A DNA stretch of 64,000 nucleotides from Vulcanimicrobiota bacterium (GCA_963805945.1 CAWDVP010000002.1:576001-640000), one strand, 5' to 3'. Positions 70 to 21,479 are shown, counted from the first letter of the stretch. Numbers and translations: made by a program. Notes: generated from the letters alone by a model not told the origin.

Positions 70-1128
70 ATGCGGGCGCTCGTCGTCGGCGCAGGCTCCA
101 TCGGGTCATACATGGCGGCGCGGCTGCAGCAGGGCGGGCACGAGCCCGTCTTCTGGCTGCGCGGCGACGTCGAGCGGCCGACAGTGGAGTACACGCTGCA
201 CGTCGGCACGACGGAGTATCGGGCGAGCGTCCAAGCGGTGACCCAGTTGTCGGACGGGCGCCTGCGCGAGCCGTTTGAACTGGCGATCGTCGCGGTGAAG
301 ACGTTTTCGACGCAAGGCGCGATCGACGCGCTCGCGGCGATTCCGGCGTGCGCGGCGTCAACCGTACTGGTCATGGAGAACGGCCTCGGCAGCGATGAGC
401 TCTGCGCGACGGCGTTCGGCGCCGACCGCGTCGTCGCCAGCGCGCTCACGACGGCGGTCGAGAAGACGGGCGAAGGCGTGCGCGCGACGAGCAAGGGCGG
501 CTTGAGCATCGCGCCGATGGGCTCTGTGCCGCAGAACTGGCTGGTGGCGGCGCTCGAAGTCACGCCCATCAGGCTCGCGGTCGTCTCCGATTGGCGCGCG
601 CTCAAGTGGTCGAAGCTGTGCATCAACCTCATGGCCAACGCGGTGTGCGCGATCCTCGATTGGCCGCCGGAGCGGGTCTACGCCGACAGCGTCGCTTTTT
701 CAATAGAGCGGCGCTGTCTGCTCGAGGTGATCGCGGTGATGGACAAGCTCTCGATCCAGCCGGTGGCGCTCATCGATTTTCCAGTGCCATGGTTCGTGGG
801 GGTGGCGCGCTCGATCCCAGAGAGTATACTTCGGATGCTCATCGCCTCGCGCGTGACCAAGGGCCGCGGCGGCAAGCTGCCCTCGCTGCTGCTCGACCTG
901 CGCGAACATCGCCCGCAGCTGGAGGTCGACGCGCTCAACGGCGCGGTCGCCTCGCGCGCGGCGGCTGCCGGCGTCGCCGCTCCGGCGAACGCGACGGTGA
1001 CGCGCATCCTCGACGGTATCACCGCCGGCACCGTGAGCTGGCATGAGTTCCGCGACAAGCCCTCGGCGCTTGCCGACGCGATCAATGCGGCCGCGGCCGG
1101 AACTGCCGCACCGCCAGGGCGACCTTAG
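70..1128 (+). CDS. panE: 2-dehydropantoate 2-reductase (ketopantoate reductase family)
   Basis: GAGSIG Rossmann motif, AVKT, ENGLG, KWSKLCIN, SLLLDL..LEVDALNG motifs. Confidence 0.85.
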   Translation: MRALVVGAGSIGSYMAARLQQGGHEPVFWLRGDVERPTVEYTLHVGTTEYRASVQAVTQLSDGRLREPFELAIVAVKTFSTQGAIDALAAIPACAASTVLVMENGLGSDELCATAFGADRVVASALTTAVEKTGEGVRATSKGGLSIAPMGSVPQNWLVAALEVTPIRLAVVSDWRALKWSKLCINLMANAVCAILDWPPERVYADSVAFSIERRCLLEVIAVMDKLSIQPVALIDFPVPWFVGVARSIPESILRMLIASRVTKGRGGKLPSLLLDLREHRPQLEVDALNGAVASRAAAAGVAAPANATVTRILDGITAGTVSWHEFRDKPSALADAINAAAAGTAAPPGRP

Positions 1129-1490
1129 CGGCGAAGCCGGCGGACGGCGTTTTCGTACGCCTTGTCGTGCGGATCCAAGGCAAGCACTCTGACGATTCGA
1201 TCATGCTCACGCACTATGAATACACCGCGGAACACGACGCCGCCGTGCCTCAAAGACGCCGCTCTGGCAAGCTGCAGCTTACCTCTCTTCTTCGGGAACT
1301 GTTTGGGGTCGGTTTCGAGCTTCGCGCGGAGATCGTTCCATGTAGCTCCGAAACCCGGGCGGGTGACGCAGTAGTCGACCAAGGCTTTGCCGACTTCCCT
1401 ATGCAGCACGACAGTCCAGCGGTCACCGGCCGCGCGGCCTGCCCGCGTTGCTGTATCGGACTCCGATCGCCTCGTCGATCGCATCTCCAA
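1125..1490 (-). CDS. putative RelE/ParE-superfamily toxin
   Basis: Small basic protein with WTVVLH..KAL start and C-terminal FRGVFIV..RIVRVLALDPHDKAY strand pattern. Directly downstream of an XRE-HTH gene. Start uncertain (1490 TTG or 1484 ATG). Confidence 0.55.
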   Translation of the reverse strand: MEMRSTRRSESDTATRAGRAAGDRWTVVLHREVGKALVDYCVTRPGFGATWNDLRAKLETDPKQFPKKRGKLQLARAASLRHGGVVFRGVFIVREHDRIVRVLALDPHDKAYENAVRRLRR

Positions 1491-1800
1491 GCACCCTTGC
1501 GCTGATGAACTCGCTGTCCGGTGCTTTGGCTCTGCGCCTCAACGCAGCTGCATCGGCACGGAGGAATCGTGGCTCGAAAAGCTCATCGAGCCGGCATCCG
1601 AGAACCATCGCGATCTTTTCGAGCTTGGCCACGGTGATGTTGCCGTCTCCTCGCTCCACCTTTGAAACCGTTGCACGAGAGACTTTGGCTCGCGTCGCGA
1701 GCCTCGACTGGGAAATATCAAGCTCGGCTCGCTTGCGCACGAGATTGACCCGAAGGATGTCCGTCGCGCGCGTCGCTGGTCGATTCTTTTCTGCTCTCAC
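1423..1800 (-). CDS. XRE-family HTH regulator / putative antitoxin
   Basis: ISQSRLATRAKVSRATVSKVERGDGNITVAKLEKIAMVLG is a typical XRE HTH. Confidence 0.85.
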   Translation of the reverse strand: MRAEKNRPATRATDILRVNLVRKRAELDISQSRLATRAKVSRATVSKVERGDGNITVAKLEKIAMVLGCRLDELFEPRFLRADAAALRRRAKAPDSEFISARVLGDAIDEAIGVRYSNAGRPRGR

Positions 1801-1807
1801 GCCCCAT

Positions 1808-1850
1808 AGTATACGCTGCTCTTGGGCTAATTGTCAATTTTAGTAGACAA
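1808..1850 (-). promoter_or_regulatory. sigma70-type promoter with overlapping inverted-repeat operator for the XRE gene
   Basis: Minus strand TTGACA (1837-1832)-N18-TATACT (1813-1808), 7 nt before the GTG start. Inverted repeat TTGTCAA..TAGACAA at 1831-1850. Confidence 0.7.
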
Positions 1851-3050
1851 TTCAAACGCTTTAGCCGCTGGACAACGGTCGGCGAGACCGCACTGATCGC
1901 ATTGCGGCTCCGGCCGGCACGGACCGAGCGCCGCGAAAAGCGCGAGCGCTCCTTCGACCGCGTACGGGTCGCGGCTGAGCGCCTGCGCGAGCGCGCCGAT
2001 CTCGAGCTGCAGCACTTCCGACGGCGCGCCGGATTCAACGATGGCGAGACGTTCGGCGACGCGCCGTGCACCCGGGTGTGCGAACACAGTGAAGAAGCCC
2101 CATCGCTTCAGCGTCTGACGTGCGGCCATCTCGTTGATGCGTGCGAAATCTGCGCGCAGCGTGTCCACCAACGCAGGCCAGCCTTCCATGGGCTCGTCTG
2201 CGGCGGCGACGCGAGCGACCCGCGCGAGATAACCGCCTTCATCGCGCGCGATGTCGCGCCAGCGCGCGGCGTTGACGACGCAGGCGCGGATCTTCGCCTC
2301 ATTGCGGATGATCGGCCGCCGTAAGAGCTCGTGCACCTCCGCATCGCCGAAGACCGCCACGCGAACAGGGTCATAACCGGCGAACCCCGCGGCCAGCGCA
2401 TCGCGCTTCGACTCCACCACCGTGTTGCCGATGCCTTGTGCGAAGATGACCTCGCACAGGCGGCCGAACGCGACGCTTTCGCCGCTCGGCGCGTCATGCT
2501 CGGCGACGTAGCGGCGCACGCGCGCCGCGCTCTCATCCGCGCCGAAGCGCGTGTCGAGGATGCGGTCGATGACGCGCACGAGGCCTGAGCGCTTGCGCAC
2601 GCTGGCCGCGCGGAGCCGCTTCCGAGGCGGCCCTAGCGTCTCAGCCGGCTGCGCCGACGGCGTTTGTTCACGGGGTTGGGTCAGAGGCATCTCATCTCCA
2701 TCATTTCGCGGGAACGCACTGCGGCAGCGGGCGAGAAAAGCGCGCCACGCGCCGAGGTTCGAGGCGGGGATCGGCGCGATGAACGCGGCGCTGCGCCAGC
2801 GTGCGGTCTCGGCCGAAAACCGGTTGCCGGCGCATGCGACAAAGCGGCGGACGAAGGCGCGCACGAGAAACGGTGAGTCGGCGTCGACGATCGCGCGCAT
2901 GCCATGCGGGATGACGCAACGGTCCACCACGCGCACGGGTGTGGCGCGGCCCGCATCGTCGCACGCGTTGAGGGCGACGCGCGCGGAGACGCCCGAGAGG
3001 CACGGCCGCAGCCGCGCCGTATCGAGCATCACGAACCATAGCCGCTCCAC
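1827..3050 (-). CDS. Tag-like DNA-3-methyladenine glycosylase with C-terminal 4-Cys motif, preceded in frame by a degenerate RAYT/Y1-transposase-like domain
   Basis: KRDALAAGFAGYDPVRVAVF..IIRNEAKIRACVVNA matches the Tag core; C-terminal CRPEPQCDQCGLADRC. An internal GGAG plus ATG at 2690 may be the true glycosylase start. Confidence 0.7.
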   Translation of the reverse strand: MERLWFVMLDTARLRPCLSGVSARVALNACDDAGRATPVRVVDRCVIPHGMRAIVDADSPFLVRAFVRRFVACAGNRFSAETARWRSAAFIAPIPASNLGAWRAFLARCRSAFPRNDGDEMPLTQPREQTPSAQPAETLGPPRKRLRAASVRKRSGLVRVIDRILDTRFGADESAARVRRYVAEHDAPSGESVAFGRLCEVIFAQGIGNTVVESKRDALAAGFAGYDPVRVAVFGDAEVHELLRRPIIRNEAKIRACVVNAARWRDIARDEGGYLARVARVAAADEPMEGWPALVDTLRADFARINEMAARQTLKRWGFFTVFAHPGARRVAERLAIVESGAPSEVLQLEIGALAQALSRDPYAVEGALALFAALGPCRPEPQCDQCGLADRCPAAKAFELSTKIDN

Positions 3051-3092
3051 ATCCGGGGTCTATGTCACGCGGGAGCGCTGTCGCGACAAGAC

Positions 3093-3118
3093 GGGCCGAT
3101 CTAAAGATCGGCCCCTAC
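3093..3118 (-). repeat. REP palindrome, family A
   Basis: Minus strand GTAG-GGGCCGATCT-TT-AGATCGGCCC. Confidence 0.85.
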
Positions 3119-3132
3119 ATAAAGCGCCGAGA

Positions 3133-3804
3133 TCAGTAGGTGCGGCGGGCGAGGTGCCGTTCGAGCGCTCGTGCGGCGAGCGCCATCGAGAAGTTGGTGA
3201 TGAAATAGACGAAGCCGATGAGCGTGAACGTCTCGATCGGATTCAAGTACTTGGCGAAGATGATCGTCCCCGAACCCGTCAGTTCTTGCACGCCGAGCCC
3301 CCATGCGTACGACGTATCCTTGACCACGGTGATGAACTGCCCGACGGTCGGCGGGATGACTTTGCGCATGCCCTGCGGCAAGATGATGAGGCGCAGCGTC
3401 TGGACGTACGAGAGGCCCTGCGAGCGCGCGGCCTCCCATTGCCCCGGCGGCACGCCGTTGAGTCCGGCGCGCACGATCTCGGCGATGACCGCGGCGGTGT
3501 AGATCGACATGCCGGCGATCGCGGCCCACACCGGCGGCAGATGGCTCCAGAAACGCGCGGCGAGCATGATCAACAAAAGCGGTAGGTTTCGGAACAACTC
3601 GATATAGAGCGTGGCGAGCGCCCCCGTCAGGCGCGCGAAGCCGCGTGCGCCTTCGCCCGCGTAACGCGCGACGCCCAAGACGACGCCGCCGACCATCGAG
3701 ATGACGATGGTCCAGAACGCGATCTCCAGCGTGACCTCGAAGCCCCACCACAAGAAACGTAGATTCTCCGACTGGAAGAGCGCGACGAAGCCGTGCCAGC
3801 TCAT
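3133..3804 (-). CDS. polar amino acid ABC transporter permease
   Basis: FRNLPLL, EIVRAG..GQWEAARSQGL (EAA loop), KDTS. Start MSWHG overlaps the upstream stop (ATGA). Confidence 0.9.
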   Translation of the reverse strand: MSWHGFVALFQSENLRFLWWGFEVTLEIAFWTIVISMVGGVVLGVARYAGEGARGFARLTGALATLYIELFRNLPLLLIMLAARFWSHLPPVWAAIAGMSIYTAAVIAEIVRAGLNGVPPGQWEAARSQGLSYVQTLRLIILPQGMRKVIPPTVGQFITVVKDTSYAWGLGVQELTGSGTIIFAKYLNPIETFTLIGFVYFITNFSMALAARALERHLARRTY

Positions 3805-4478
3805 GCGCCGCGCCTCGCATCGGCCGGCGTCGCGATGCGGCGCTCGAAGTAGCGCGCGAGACCGGCGAGTGGCAACGTCAACGCGAGATAGAGAACGGCG
3901 ACGGTGACGTAGGCGACGCCGTACATCAACGTCTCGGATGACCACGTGTCCGCCTGATAGATGAGATCTGCGCCGGCGATGAGCGAGAGCACCTGCGTGT
4001 TCTTCACGAGGTTGACGCACTGGTTGGTGTATGGCGGGATGATGACGCGCAGCGCCTGCGGCAGCACGACGTAGCGCATCGCTTGCACGAACGTGAGGCC
4101 CTGCGACAACGCCGCTTCGAGCTGGCCACGCGCGACCGAGGCGACGCCGCCGCGCACCACTTCGGCGATGAACGCGCCTGTGTAGATCGACAGGCTCACC
4201 ACGCCCACGACGAGCACCGGCAGCACGATGTGGAACCGCGGCAGTCCGTAGTAGAAGAAGAACGCCTGCAGCAGCAGCGGCGTGTTGCGGATCGACTCGA
4301 CGTAGATGCGGTTGACGGCCTGGGCGAGCCGCGACGGCGCGGCGCCGAGCAAGCCGAACGCCACGCCGAGGATCGTCGCGAACACGAGCGCTAGCGCCGC
4401 GACGAGCACCGTGTGCGCGAGCCCGATGGCGAAGACGCGCCAGTCGAGCAGCAGCGCCGACCAGGCCTGGAGCGTCAT
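3801..4478 (-). CDS. polar amino acid ABC transporter permease
   Basis: RNTPLL, EVVRGG..GQLEAALSQGL, KNT. Confidence 0.9.
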   Translation of the reverse strand: MTLQAWSALLLDWRVFAIGLAHTVLVAALALVFATILGVAFGLLGAAPSRLAQAVNRIYVESIRNTPLLLQAFFFYYGLPRFHIVLPVLVVGVVSLSIYTGAFIAEVVRGGVASVARGQLEAALSQGLTFVQAMRYVVLPQALRVIIPPYTNQCVNLVKNTQVLSLIAGADLIYQADTWSSETLMYGVAYVTVAVLYLALTLPLAGLARYFERRIATPADARRGA

Positions 4479-4503
4479 CGCCGTCGTCTAAGCGGCCCTT
4501 AGG

Positions 4504-5337
4504 CTACTTCGTCTCGTTCTCGGTGTAGATGCCCCATTTCTGTTGCCACTTCTTCAGCGTGCCCGAGTTCTTGATGTCGGTGATCTGGGTCGCCACCCAC
4601 GCGGACAACGTGTCGCCGCCCTTGCGGGTCGCCACGCCGTAGTCTTCGCTGCTGTAGCGATCGGGCAGGATGACGGTGGTGGGGTCTTGCTGCTCGTAGT
4701 ACTTGAGGATCGAGCCGTCGGTGGAGAACGCCTGCACGCGGCCGGCCTGCAGCGCCGCGAGGATCTCGCCGTACGTCTCGAACGCGGCGAAGCTCAGCAG
4801 CACGTTGATGTCGGACCCCTTGGCGGTGAGCCGCGTGGCGGTATCCGCACCCTTGGCGACGCCGATGGTCTTGTTGTTGAGGTCCTTGAGCCCTTTGATG
4901 CCCGAGCTCTTCTGCACGAGCAGCGCGATGCCGTCGGTGTAGTAGGGCGGGCTGAAGTCGAGGATGAGCTTGCGCTGGTCGGTGATGGTGAACGTCGCGA
5001 TGACCATGTCGAGCTCGCCGCTGTCGAGCAGCGCGCCGCGCGTCTTCGCCGTCACCGTGGTGAACTTGACCTTGTTCGGGTCGCCGAGCAGGCGCTTGGC
5101 GAGCTCGTGCGCGATGTCGATCTCGTAGCCCTCGTACTGGTTCGTCTTGGGATTGAGGAAGCCGAAGCCGAGCACATCGGCCTTCACGCCGACGTCGAGC
5201 GCGCCGCGCGCCTTGATATCGGATAGCTGGTCGGCCGCCGCCGGTCCGGCGCCGAGCGCGCACAGCGCGAGCGCTGCAGCGAGCGCGGCGAACGTGGCGC
5301 CCGCGACGCGCCCGATCGCGAAATGCCGTCTCTTCAC
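4504..5337 (-). CDS. amino acid (Glu/Asp/Gln-type) ABC substrate-binding protein
   Basis: Signal peptide; [29 protein letters not shown] (SBP family 3). Confidence 0.9.
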
Positions 5338-5353
5338 GATGTCCCCTCCATGA

Positions 5354-6082
<729 letters not shown>

Positions 6083-21420: not shown

Positions 21421-21479
21421 CAGTCGAATAGATTCGACCGCTCAATAAGACAAGGGCCGATCTAAAGATCGGCCCCCAC
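21421..21479 (-). repeat. tandem REP doublet (family B 21421-21444 plus family A 21454-21479)
   Basis: Minus strand GTGG-GGGCCGATCT-TT-AGATCGGCCC and TGAG-CGGTCGAAT-CT-ATTCGACTG. Confidence 0.8.

What the first reader, a model, noticed from the sequence alone, without database searches (positions are those of the whole stretch)
2690..3118. Catalytically dead RAYT-like domain beside a REP and joined to a DNA glycosylase
Seen: residues 1-115 of ORF 1827-3050 follow the RAYT/Y1 transposase motif order by eye: LWFVMLDT..RPCL (cf. YFVTxxT..R.PLF), CVIPHGMRAIV (cf. VVMPNHUH), FVRRF, RWRSAAFIAPI (cf. WQxxYxDHxI), WRAFLARC (cf. xxYIxxNP). Both HUH histidines and the catalytic Tyr are replaced. A perfect GTAG REP sits about 40 nt upstream. 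Known: RAYT genes are flanked by their REPs. Inference: either a decaying REPtron or a domesticated hairpin-binding domain fused or coupled to a repair enzyme, which could target repair to REP sites. Caveat: an internal RBS plus ATG at 2690 and an out-of-frame TGA at 2701 mean one indel would make two genes.
Basis: partly seen in the sequence, partly recalled or inferred. Interest (0 to 1): 0.75.

Follow-up and report, generated by a model that had tools for sequence, protein, structure and literature searches.

The report
Dead transposase domain on glycosylase-like protein
One family of uncultured soil-type bacteria keeps a fixed chromosomal gene in which a transposase fold that has lost its cutting residues is joined to a DNA-repair-type fold, with a second start signal between them that likely yields a long and a short protein; it looks like a tamed mobile-element part, likely reused to grip DNA, and the REP repeat beside it appears to be a bystander.

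Summary
ORF 1827-3050 (-) is one 407-codon frame. Residues 1-112 fold as a Y1/HUH transposase (best structural hits IS608 TnpA, TnpA-REP, Sulfolobus TnpA; Z 10.7-12.7, next 8.4). The HUH site is G-x-R in 68 of 68 homologues. Residues 143-400 are a Tag-like HhH fold with a four-cysteine motif; it lacks Tag's Glu38 and EndoIII's catalytic Asp. The fusion is in 23 of 32 Eremiobacteraceae genomes, single-copy and syntenic, with dN/dS 0.10-0.36 on the dead domain in close pairs: domesticated, not decaying. Motif spacings match IS200/IS605 TnpA rather than RAYT, though the tree is unresolved. The REP is one of about 140-160 copies in this genome; six same-genus genomes carry the fusion without this REP family, and no relative has a REP upstream. 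An in-frame ATG with a Shine-Dalgarno site sits in the linker in 16 of 18 genomes and 26 of 30 metagenome loci, so two nested products are likely. The best guess is a DNA-hairpin/ssDNA-gripping module on a lesion-binding protein; untested.

The parts
1827..3050 (-). Whole fusion ORF, GTG start, 407 aa (long product)
   Evidence: same fusion in 23 of 32 family genomes
2715..3050 (-). Catalytically dead Y1/HUH transposase-fold domain, aa 1-112; conserved W5, D10, R13, R15, G50, R52, R64, R68, R69, W85, R86
   Evidence: fold; conservation in 68 sequences; dN/dS
2895..2903 (-). Former HUH motif, now G50-M51-R52
   Evidence: register to ISDra2 TnpA; G 68/68, R 68/68, His 0/68
2736..2738 (-). Former catalytic Tyr position, F105 here
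   Evidence: F 29, Y 18, L 9, Q 4 of 68; register
2625..2714 (-). Variable, low-confidence linker, aa 113-142, holding the internal start
   Evidence: pLDDT <50 at aa 117-142; length varies in the alignment
2688..2699 (-). Shine-Dalgarno-like GGAG (2699-2696) and in-frame ATG (2690-2688, Met121): likely start of a 287-aa short product
   Evidence: ATG+SD in linker in 16 of 18 genomes versus 0.006 expected; 26 of 30 metagenome loci; Met in 57 of 67 proteins versus 13% expected
1851..2624 (-). HhH-superfamily glycosylase fold, aa 143-400: Tag-like first half, EndoIII/MutY-like second half
   Evidence: PF03352 E 3e-11; TIGR00624 far under cut-off; VIA Z 12-13 to EndoIII, TAG, NTHL1
2076..2078 (-). 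His325 at the place of EndoIII's catalytic Asp
   Evidence: weak HMMER alignment to 1p59, E 0.17; H 56, N 6, A 1, gap 5 of 68
1872..1919 (-). C378-C384-C387-C393, EndoIII-type iron-sulfur motif (cluster predicted)
   Evidence: PF10576 weak, E 0.07; Cys in 61-62 of 68, nearly all others truncated
3061..3089 (-). Conserved promoter-like element (-35-like 3089-3084, 17-nt spacer, -10-like 3066-3061), 10 nt before the GTG; no SD at this start
   Evidence: aligned in 21 of 21 upstream regions; a matrix built without this genome finds it again; below the threshold of the consensus scan; function inferred
3093..3118 (-). GTAG REP, one ordinary copy of the genome-wide family, just after the stop of the amino-acid ABC transporter operon; bystander
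   Evidence: (142 matches in this genome)

Best explanation
This is a vertically inherited, single-copy Eremiobacteraceae gene in which a Y1 (HUH) transposase fold lacking its metal-binding histidines is fused in frame to a Tag-like HhH/iron-sulfur glycosylase fold, and it likely makes two nested proteins, the long one likely using the dead transposase domain as a non-cutting grip for hairpin or single-stranded DNA. Shown: folds, loss of catalytic residues, in-frame fusion, synteny, purifying selection, conserved internal SD-ATG. Inferred: (1) a transposase, more likely IS200/IS605 TnpA than RAYT (about 65:30), landed upstream of the glycosylase-like gene in the family's ancestor and was read through into it, while the old start was kept; (2) a promoter about 10 nt before the GTG gives a near-leaderless message, so the long form would be minor and the SD-led short form major; (3) the basic face of the Y1 domain (R13, R15, R64, R68, R69; median net charge +13) binds DNA secondary structure or ssDNA without sequence specificity for REPs, with invariant Arg52 possibly replacing the metal's charge; (4) the HhH domain binds or excises a non-canonical base lesion. 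It is not a textbook 3-methyladenine glycosylase and may be a non-catalytic lesion binder (about even odds).
For: Fold. No His at either HUH position in 68 of 68; third metal-ligand position is C or M in 53 of 68 (ligand position from PMC6006769). Fusion in 23 of 32 genomes, one copy each; opposite panE in all 9 orthologue-bearing wide loci. N-domain found in 13 of 15 family genomes and in none of 185 other phylum genomes apart from one weak hit, E 0.007, that I did not inspect. dN/dS on the N-domain 0.10, 0.21, 0.28 and 0.20-0.36 in 5 further close pairs; pN<pS in 153 of 153 pairs. Internal start; 54 database homologues of 255-300 aa were called from a Met at about the same distance from the first conserved C-domain motif. 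DNA grip: in TnpA-REP helix C inserts into the hairpin minor groove via R78/K81/K82 (PMC3479197 section 17); by my register, R68 (60 of 68) corresponds to R78. IS200 leaning: spacings 45/18/20 in the N-domain (64, 60, 67 of 68), the same in IS200 (17, 19, 15 of 19), but 46/19/21 in RAYT (21, 15, 24 of 26); W+6 is non-acidic in the N-domain and IS200 but D/E in 22 of 26 RAYTs; profile-profile E 0.0014-0.0018 versus 0.02-0.97.
Against: No binding or expression data. TnpA-REP K81/K82 map to V71/A72, so part of the hairpin-binding face is lost. High Arg content is partly expected in a 66% GC genome. The internal SD-ATG could reflect constraint left from the ancestral gene, and gene callers' choices are not evidence of translation. 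dN/dS rises to 0.37-0.67 in the ten more distant pairs, where dS is near saturation. The gene is dispensable: no orthologue found in 8 of 32 family genomes (55-94% complete), two genomes have a frameshift near aa 336-340, and L249 has a nonsense codon and a frameshift. For RAYT rather than IS200: no IS200 TnpA over cut-off in 32 family genomes while RAYTs occur in 8 of 15; the model's last helix lies in cis as in 4er8 (114 aligned versus 98), though a single-chain model would tend to do that; the tree leaves the domain on a long unresolved branch.
Confidence: 0.5

Rival explanations
1. The dead Y1 domain is a protein-interaction or oligomerisation module (IS200 TnpAs are obligate dimers) that dimerises, localises or regulates the glycosylase-like domain rather than binding DNA.
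For: IS200-type spacing, and the hydrophobic strand residue that PMC3479197 ties to the IS608 dimer surface (I113) is non-acidic in 68 of 68.
Against: The best-conserved surface residues are arginines. The Thr/Ser at W+8 and the Pro after the HUH strand that the same paper names as dimer determinants are not conserved.
Confidence: 0.2
2. The long form is a host brake on active Y1 transposases: it occupies IS200/RAYT hairpin substrates or forms dead mixed dimers, and the HhH domain protects or processes the resulting DNA ends.
For: Intact RAYTs with REP arrays are common in this family; an anti-transposon role was proposed for the analogous CSB-PGBD3 fusion (PMC2268245 abstract).
Against: The gene is kept in six same-genus genomes with no Y1 transposase found and in this genome beside a large REP family; RAYT is monomeric.
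Confidence: 0.1
3. Only one product matters: the full-length fusion is the functional protein and the internal SD-ATG is an unused relic, or the two domains act as separate, merely co-encoded units.
For: L014 and L021 lack an ATG+SD in the linker; 4 of 30 metagenome loci have TTG or GTG there instead. One 146-aa database protein on a 44-kb contig ends after the N-domain while its cluster mate is fused.
Against: SD plus start persists at a nearly fixed distance (W85+31 to +36) among proteins only 38-56% identical, inside an otherwise unconserved linker.
Confidence: 0.12
4. One reading: a RAYT-derived domain that targets repair to REP sites.
For: Y1 fold with 4er8 among the top hits; REP 42 nt upstream; two relatives have a REP-like hairpin just after the stop codon (L010, L017); other REP types exist in family genomes.
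Against: No upstream REP in 22 other genome loci (2 lack upstream DNA) or 29 metagenome loci. The REP family is missing from 6 of 6 same-genus carriers. The C-terminal RAYT extension that reads GTAG (around E161) and the Asn-Pro after the Tyr are absent. Spacings are IS200-type.
Confidence: 0.06
5. A decaying REPtron or assembly artefact accidentally in frame with a glycosylase gene.
For: One related copy is decaying (L249).
Against: Family-wide in-frame conservation, purifying selection, and independent contigs across the junction with only a 9-nt in-frame gap.
Confidence: 0.02

Closest known systems
IS200/IS605 TnpA (IS608 2vhg/2vjv, ISDra2 2xm3, Sulfolobus 2ec2; NF033573, PF01797)
   Same: Fold over aa 1-98 (Z 12.7, rmsd 2.4); identical spacing of strand 1, HUH, helix C, Trp and Tyr positions; L-x-G after the arginine loop.
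   Different: No HUH histidines, no Gln after the Tyr, mostly no Tyr; no family model hit; fused to a host domain; single-copy at a fixed locus.
RAYT / TnpA-REP (4er8; NF047646)
   Same: Fold over the whole domain (Z 11.3, rmsd 2.9, 114 aligned); single-copy, host-retained behaviour.
   Different: RAYTs keep catalysis and are flanked by their REPs; this domain lacks the catalytic residues, the Asn-Pro motif, the acidic W+6 residue and the C-terminal GTAG-reading extension, and is not REP-flanked in relatives.
3-methyladenine DNA glycosylase I (Tag; 2ofk, PF03352, TIGR00624)
   Same: Sequence match over about aa 181-275 (profile E 7e-15); Tyr13 and His17 equivalents kept (Y181, H185).
   Different: 38 bits against a cut-off of 232; Tyr16 is D/E/A, Glu38 is Val (59 of 68), Trp46 is F/Y/other; an EndoIII-type C-terminal half with four cysteines follows. 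The genome has separate Tag-family genes.
EndoIII/MutY HhH-GPD glycosylases with a [4Fe-4S] cluster (2abk, 8a5g, 1p59)
   Same: Whole two-subdomain fold (Z 12-13 over aa 144-400) and C-terminal four-cysteine motif.
   Different: Catalytic Asp position is His or Asn; no conserved Lys after the HhH; separate HhH-GPD genes exist in the genome.
Primate CSB-PGBD3 fusion (PMC2268245, abstract read)
   Same: A domesticated transposase joined in frame to a DNA-repair protein, kept by selection, and co-expressed with an unfused product of the same gene.
   Different: Eukaryotic, piggyBac transposase, made by alternative splicing; here bacterial, Y1 fold, with a likely internal translation start. Analogy only, no homology.

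Membership tests
Y1/HUH transposase superfamily (fold) | Four-stranded sheet with flanking helices and a C-terminal Tyr helix | tested here: met
Active Y1 transposase (IS200 or RAYT) | HUH histidines | tested here: not met
   G-x-R in 68 of 68
Active Y1 transposase (IS200 or RAYT) | Catalytic Tyr and third metal ligand (Gln/Asn) four residues later | tested here: not met
   Tyr in 18 of 68; ligand position C or M in 53 of 68
RAYT / REPtron | Gene flanked by its cognate REPs | tested here: not met
   one REP in this genome only; none upstream in relatives; the cognate RAYT is L001
RAYT / REPtron | Tyr-x-x-x-Asn-Pro motif, acidic W+6 residue, C-terminal extension | tested here: not met
RAYT / REPtron | GTAG-dependent hairpin binding | not testable with these tools
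   needs EMSA
IS200/IS605 TnpA (ancestry) | Motif spacing and profile similarity of class 1 TnpA | tested here: met
   45/18/20 spacing; profile E 0.0014-0.0018, score 18 versus at most 3.5 in 40 column shuffles; weak in absolute terms
IS200/IS605 TnpA (ancestry) | Phylogenetic placement inside the IS200 clade | tested here: inconclusive
   long branch between IS200 and RAYT, support 82/19; AU test not run
IS200/IS605 element | Mobile, variable location | tested here: not met
   single copy, conserved neighbours; IS end hairpins and tnpB remnants not searched specifically
Tag (3-methyladenine glycosylase I) | Score over the family cut-off | tested here: not met
   TIGR00624 38 of 232.5 bits; Pfam PF03352 domain cut-off is passed
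Tag (3-methyladenine glycosylase I) | Base-pocket residues Tyr16, Glu38, Trp46 | tested here: not met
   alignment, counts; residue roles recalled, with E38Q and Y16F mutant entries seen
HhH-GPD glycosylase (EndoIII/MutY type) | HhH two-subdomain fold and four-cysteine motif | tested here: met
HhH-GPD glycosylase (EndoIII/MutY type) | Catalytic Asp after the HhH | tested here: not met
   His 56, Asn 6, Asp 0 of 68; the alignment is weak (E 0.17) but anchored on the following helix
DNA glycosylase (any) | Base excision activity | not testable with these tools
   needs an assay

The most novel reading that the evidence does not exclude
A bacterial family has turned a single-strand transposase into a non-cutting DNA-structure sensor and uses two translation starts in one gene to make a free lesion-processing HhH/iron-sulfur protein and a version tethered to hairpin or lagging-strand ssDNA, with a His-for-Asp active site of unknown chemistry: a bacterial counterpart of CSB-PGBD3-style transposase capture and a new glycosylase subfamily.
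Probability: 0.3. Interest if true: 0.85.

Novelty: new variant of a known kind. Interest (0 to 1): 0.64.

Why it matters
Domesticated prokaryotic Y1 transposases described so far (RAYTs) keep their catalytic residues. The main survey of the family set aside both over-long fusion proteins and sequences lacking HUH/Y (PMC6006769), so dead, fused Y1 domains like this one would have been filtered out, and databases label these proteins simply as Tag. The gene is a testable case of a mobile-element fold recruited as a pure binding module in bacterial DNA maintenance, with a conserved dual start and an unusual HhH active site. It is limited to one uncultured family and no function is shown.

Tried and rejected
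Complex prediction of two copies of aa 1-116 (66-row alignment): no answer, score 0.12 against a mark of 0.42; not used for or against. Sequencing runs: no RNA holder listed, so expression is untested. ESM Atlas: no result obtained. Pfam, NCBIfam and PHROGs scans do not detect the N-domain. Profile comparison with 14 family RAYTs alone: E 0.75. The profile search of 1.84 billion representatives gave 20 hits: 17 family members, 2 repeat-rich proteins that I dropped as noise, and 1 unrelated degenerate IS200-like protein, P0020. Searching proteins of 63-203 aa found 2, both apparent fragments of the fusion; longer lengths were not searched with that tool. No relative in viral contigs; only ordinary partial Tag matches in plasmids. 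The weak second N-domain hit in G013 is in an unrelated region. The upstream promoter-like motif gives 82 genome hits against 29-35 in 2 shuffles, before unrelated genes, so I found no sign of a repair regulon. The tree (15 of 68 N-domains, 17 of 19 IS200, 21 of 26 RAYT; insert-bearing RAYTs and near-copies left out) did not settle the ancestry. Literature searches (listings and abstract starts only) showed no description of this fusion; most subscription papers are not in the library. A primary paper on the Tag pocket was not held, and two searches for one found none (searches were unhelpful; one search gave only a review). Earlier-findings look-ups by sequence and by words returned nothing.

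Full report
Observation. The window's ORF 1827-3050 (-) runs 407 codons from a GTG. The GTAG hairpin at 3093-3118, the internal ATG at 2690 with GGAG five bases before it, and the out-of-frame TGA at 2703-2701 are all as described. Record titles of related loci name Vulcanimicrobiota / Ca. Eremiobacteraceae; the window's own genome is G000, 2.3 Mb, 82% complete.

N-terminal domain. Family libraries miss it, but a profile of 18 orthologues ranks ISDra2 TnpA first among 177,635 PDB sequences (E 0.14). Its AlphaFold model (pLDDT 92.6) matches Y1 transposases: Foldseek E 5e-7 to 2e-5 for the 19 listed top chains; VIA Z 12.7 (IS608, rmsd 2.4, 98 aligned), 11.3 (TnpA-REP, 2.9, 114) and 10.7 (Sulfolobus, 2.7, 97), next 8.4. 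Among 68 sequences under 90% identity (kept from 78), G50 and R52 are invariant at the two His positions, the Tyr position is F 29, Y 18, L 9, Q 4, and the third metal-ligand position is C or M in 53 (ligand position from the opening part of PMC6006769). The domain cannot cut DNA by the HUH mechanism (inference from established chemistry).

Not decay. The two domains lie in one frame in 23 of 32 family genomes: 18 full-length, 3 cut by contig ends, 2 with a frameshift near aa 336-340. One more shows only the C-terminal end at a contig edge, and 8 show no orthologue. In metagenomes 29 of 30 loci with a whole N-domain are fused (the script printed 28, L217 was missed by a motif filter but reads through to the cysteines); the exception, L249, is decaying. 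These loci may overlap the genome set and kin are not independent. Contigs from two independent runs cross the junction, one with no gap and one with a 9-nt gap. The gene lies opposite panE in all 9 orthologue-bearing wide loci, and panE is present in 45 of 66 loci of any length. Nei-Gojobori dN/dS on the N-domain is 0.10-0.28 in the three closest genome pairs, 0.37-0.67 in ten more distant near-saturated pairs, and 0.20-0.36 in five further close pairs; the C-domain gives 0.08-0.12 in close pairs. Outside the family the domain was not found in 185 phylum genomes, apart from one uninspected hit at E 0.007.

The REP is a bystander. It is one of 142 to 164 copies in about 134 clusters, roughly one per 13 crudely called genes. 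The cognate intact RAYT is at G000:C3:119.7 kb with this REP on both sides. All six same-genus genomes carry the fusion, have 0 matches to this REP pattern and no Y1 transposase found. No GTAG/GTGG hairpin lies upstream in 22 other genome loci (two lack upstream DNA) or within 250 nt in 29 metagenome loci. Two relatives have one just after the stop codon. GTAG reading by TnpA-REP involves its C-terminal extension (PMC3479197, passages and section 17), which this domain lacks.

Ancestry. Distances strand 1 to HUH, HUH to helix C, and Trp to Tyr are 45/18/20 in the N-domain and in IS200 TnpAs but 46/19/21 in RAYTs, and W+6 is acidic only in RAYTs (68, 19 and 26 sequences). E. coli TnpA-REP shares the 45 spacing. 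Profile comparison gives E 0.0014-0.0018 to IS200 and 0.02-0.97 to four RAYT subsets. Against this, the family now has RAYTs but no IS200 TnpA over cut-off, the model's last helix is in cis, and the tree places the domain on a long branch between the two groups, outside the starred clade of 15 family RAYTs. I put IS200/IS605 at about 65% and RAYT at about 30%.

C-terminal domain. Residues 143-400 form a complete HhH fold (Z 12-13 to EndoIII, TAG, NTHL1), Tag-like in sequence over its first half and EndoIII/MutY-like with four cysteines in its second. Tag's Tyr16, Glu38 and Trp46 positions are D/E/A, Val and F/Y/other, and EndoIII's catalytic Asp aligns with His325 (His 56, Asn 6, Asp 0 of 68). 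The roles of these residues are recalled; a review passage confirms a catalytic Asp for AlkA-type HhH enzymes (PMC4437013). Many pocket-side residues are nearly invariant (R177, R179, Y181, H185, Q205, E366), so a site is being maintained. The full-length domain was found only in this family; other genomes match the Tag-like half alone. The genome has its own Tag-family and HhH-GPD genes elsewhere. A defence role of the Dag type (bioRxiv 10.1101/2025.10.29.685425, passages) fits poorly with a fixed core-like locus.

Two starts. An in-frame ATG with an SD of four or more bases lies in the linker in 16 of 18 genomes, against 0.006 expected from the rest of the same genes, in 26 of 30 metagenome loci, with TTG plus SD in 2 more, and a linker Met is in 57 of 67 proteins against 13% expected. 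The upstream GTG or ATG usually has no SD (3 of 18) but sits about 6-13 nt behind a promoter-like element aligned in 21 of 21 upstream regions. I infer a near-leaderless message giving a minor long form and an SD-led short form; no expression data were available.

Mechanism. Most likely the long form uses the arginine-rich Y1 domain (median net charge +13; R68 corresponds by my register to TnpA-REP R78 on the hairpin-binding helix) to hold hairpin or single-stranded DNA without cutting, and presents it to the HhH domain, which binds or removes an unknown lesion. Confidence 0.5; rivals are a dimerisation module (0.2), a single functional product (0.12), a brake on active Y1 transposases (0.1), REP targeting (0.06) and decay (0.02).

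Novelty. Four literature searches (listings only) showed no such fusion. The Y1 survey discarded fusions and HUH-less sequences (PMC6006769, part 2); its supplements were not read and may list such proteins. The nearest conceptual precedent is CSB-PGBD3 (abstract). Verdict: new variant of a known kind, interest 0.64.

Unpublished genomes. G013 (L018, L038) and G010 (L019) are 2 of the 18 rows in alignments A1, A2 and A4-A6 and count in 23 of 32, 16 of 18 and 21 of 21; G016 is one of the 8 genomes without an orthologue. No conclusion depends on them alone.

Noticed in passing
window 1125-1800 (-): An Xre-type HTH gene (1423-1800) followed by a RelE-like ORF (about 1125-1418; PHROG 1213, E 0.027) with a strong TTGACA-18-TATACT promoter at 1837-1808 overlapping the fusion gene's 3' end. 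It looks like an antitoxin-first toxin-antitoxin pair between the fusion gene and panE. Not found in 66 related loci, but partly covered by contigs of two runs.
   Followed up: partly
L001 (G000:C3:119,550-120,180): Intact RAYT (NF047646 over cut-off) flanked by inverted copies of this genome's REP family: a complete REPtron, so this REP family is not an orphan.
   Followed up: yes
L044, L045, L046, L049, L051, L052, L054, L056, L058: Other Eremiobacteraceae RAYTs each carry their own GTAG hairpin type, several as tandem arrays of up to 8 copies on one side.
   Followed up: no
P0020 (215 aa): A separate degenerate IS200-like protein without HUH histidines and with an unrelated C-terminal tail (NF033573 E 0.027): possibly another independent dead Y1 domain.
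   Followed up: no
L249 2490-3620; L098; L099: Broken copies of the fusion gene: a nonsense codon just after the linker start plus a frameshift in L249; single frameshifts near aa 336-340 in G047 and G044, which may be sequencing errors.
   Followed up: partly
G000:C6:489,958-490,466: The genome's canonical Tag gene matches PF03352 in pieces in different frames, so it is frameshifted or mis-assembled; another Tag-like gene is at C8:69,643-69,891.
   Followed up: no
window 21454-21479 (-): Second REP copy in the window, with a GTGG tetranucleotide.
   Followed up: no
window 3133-6082 (-): Polar amino-acid ABC transporter operon directly upstream of the REP; present beside the gene in only 4 of 66 related loci.
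   Followed up: partly
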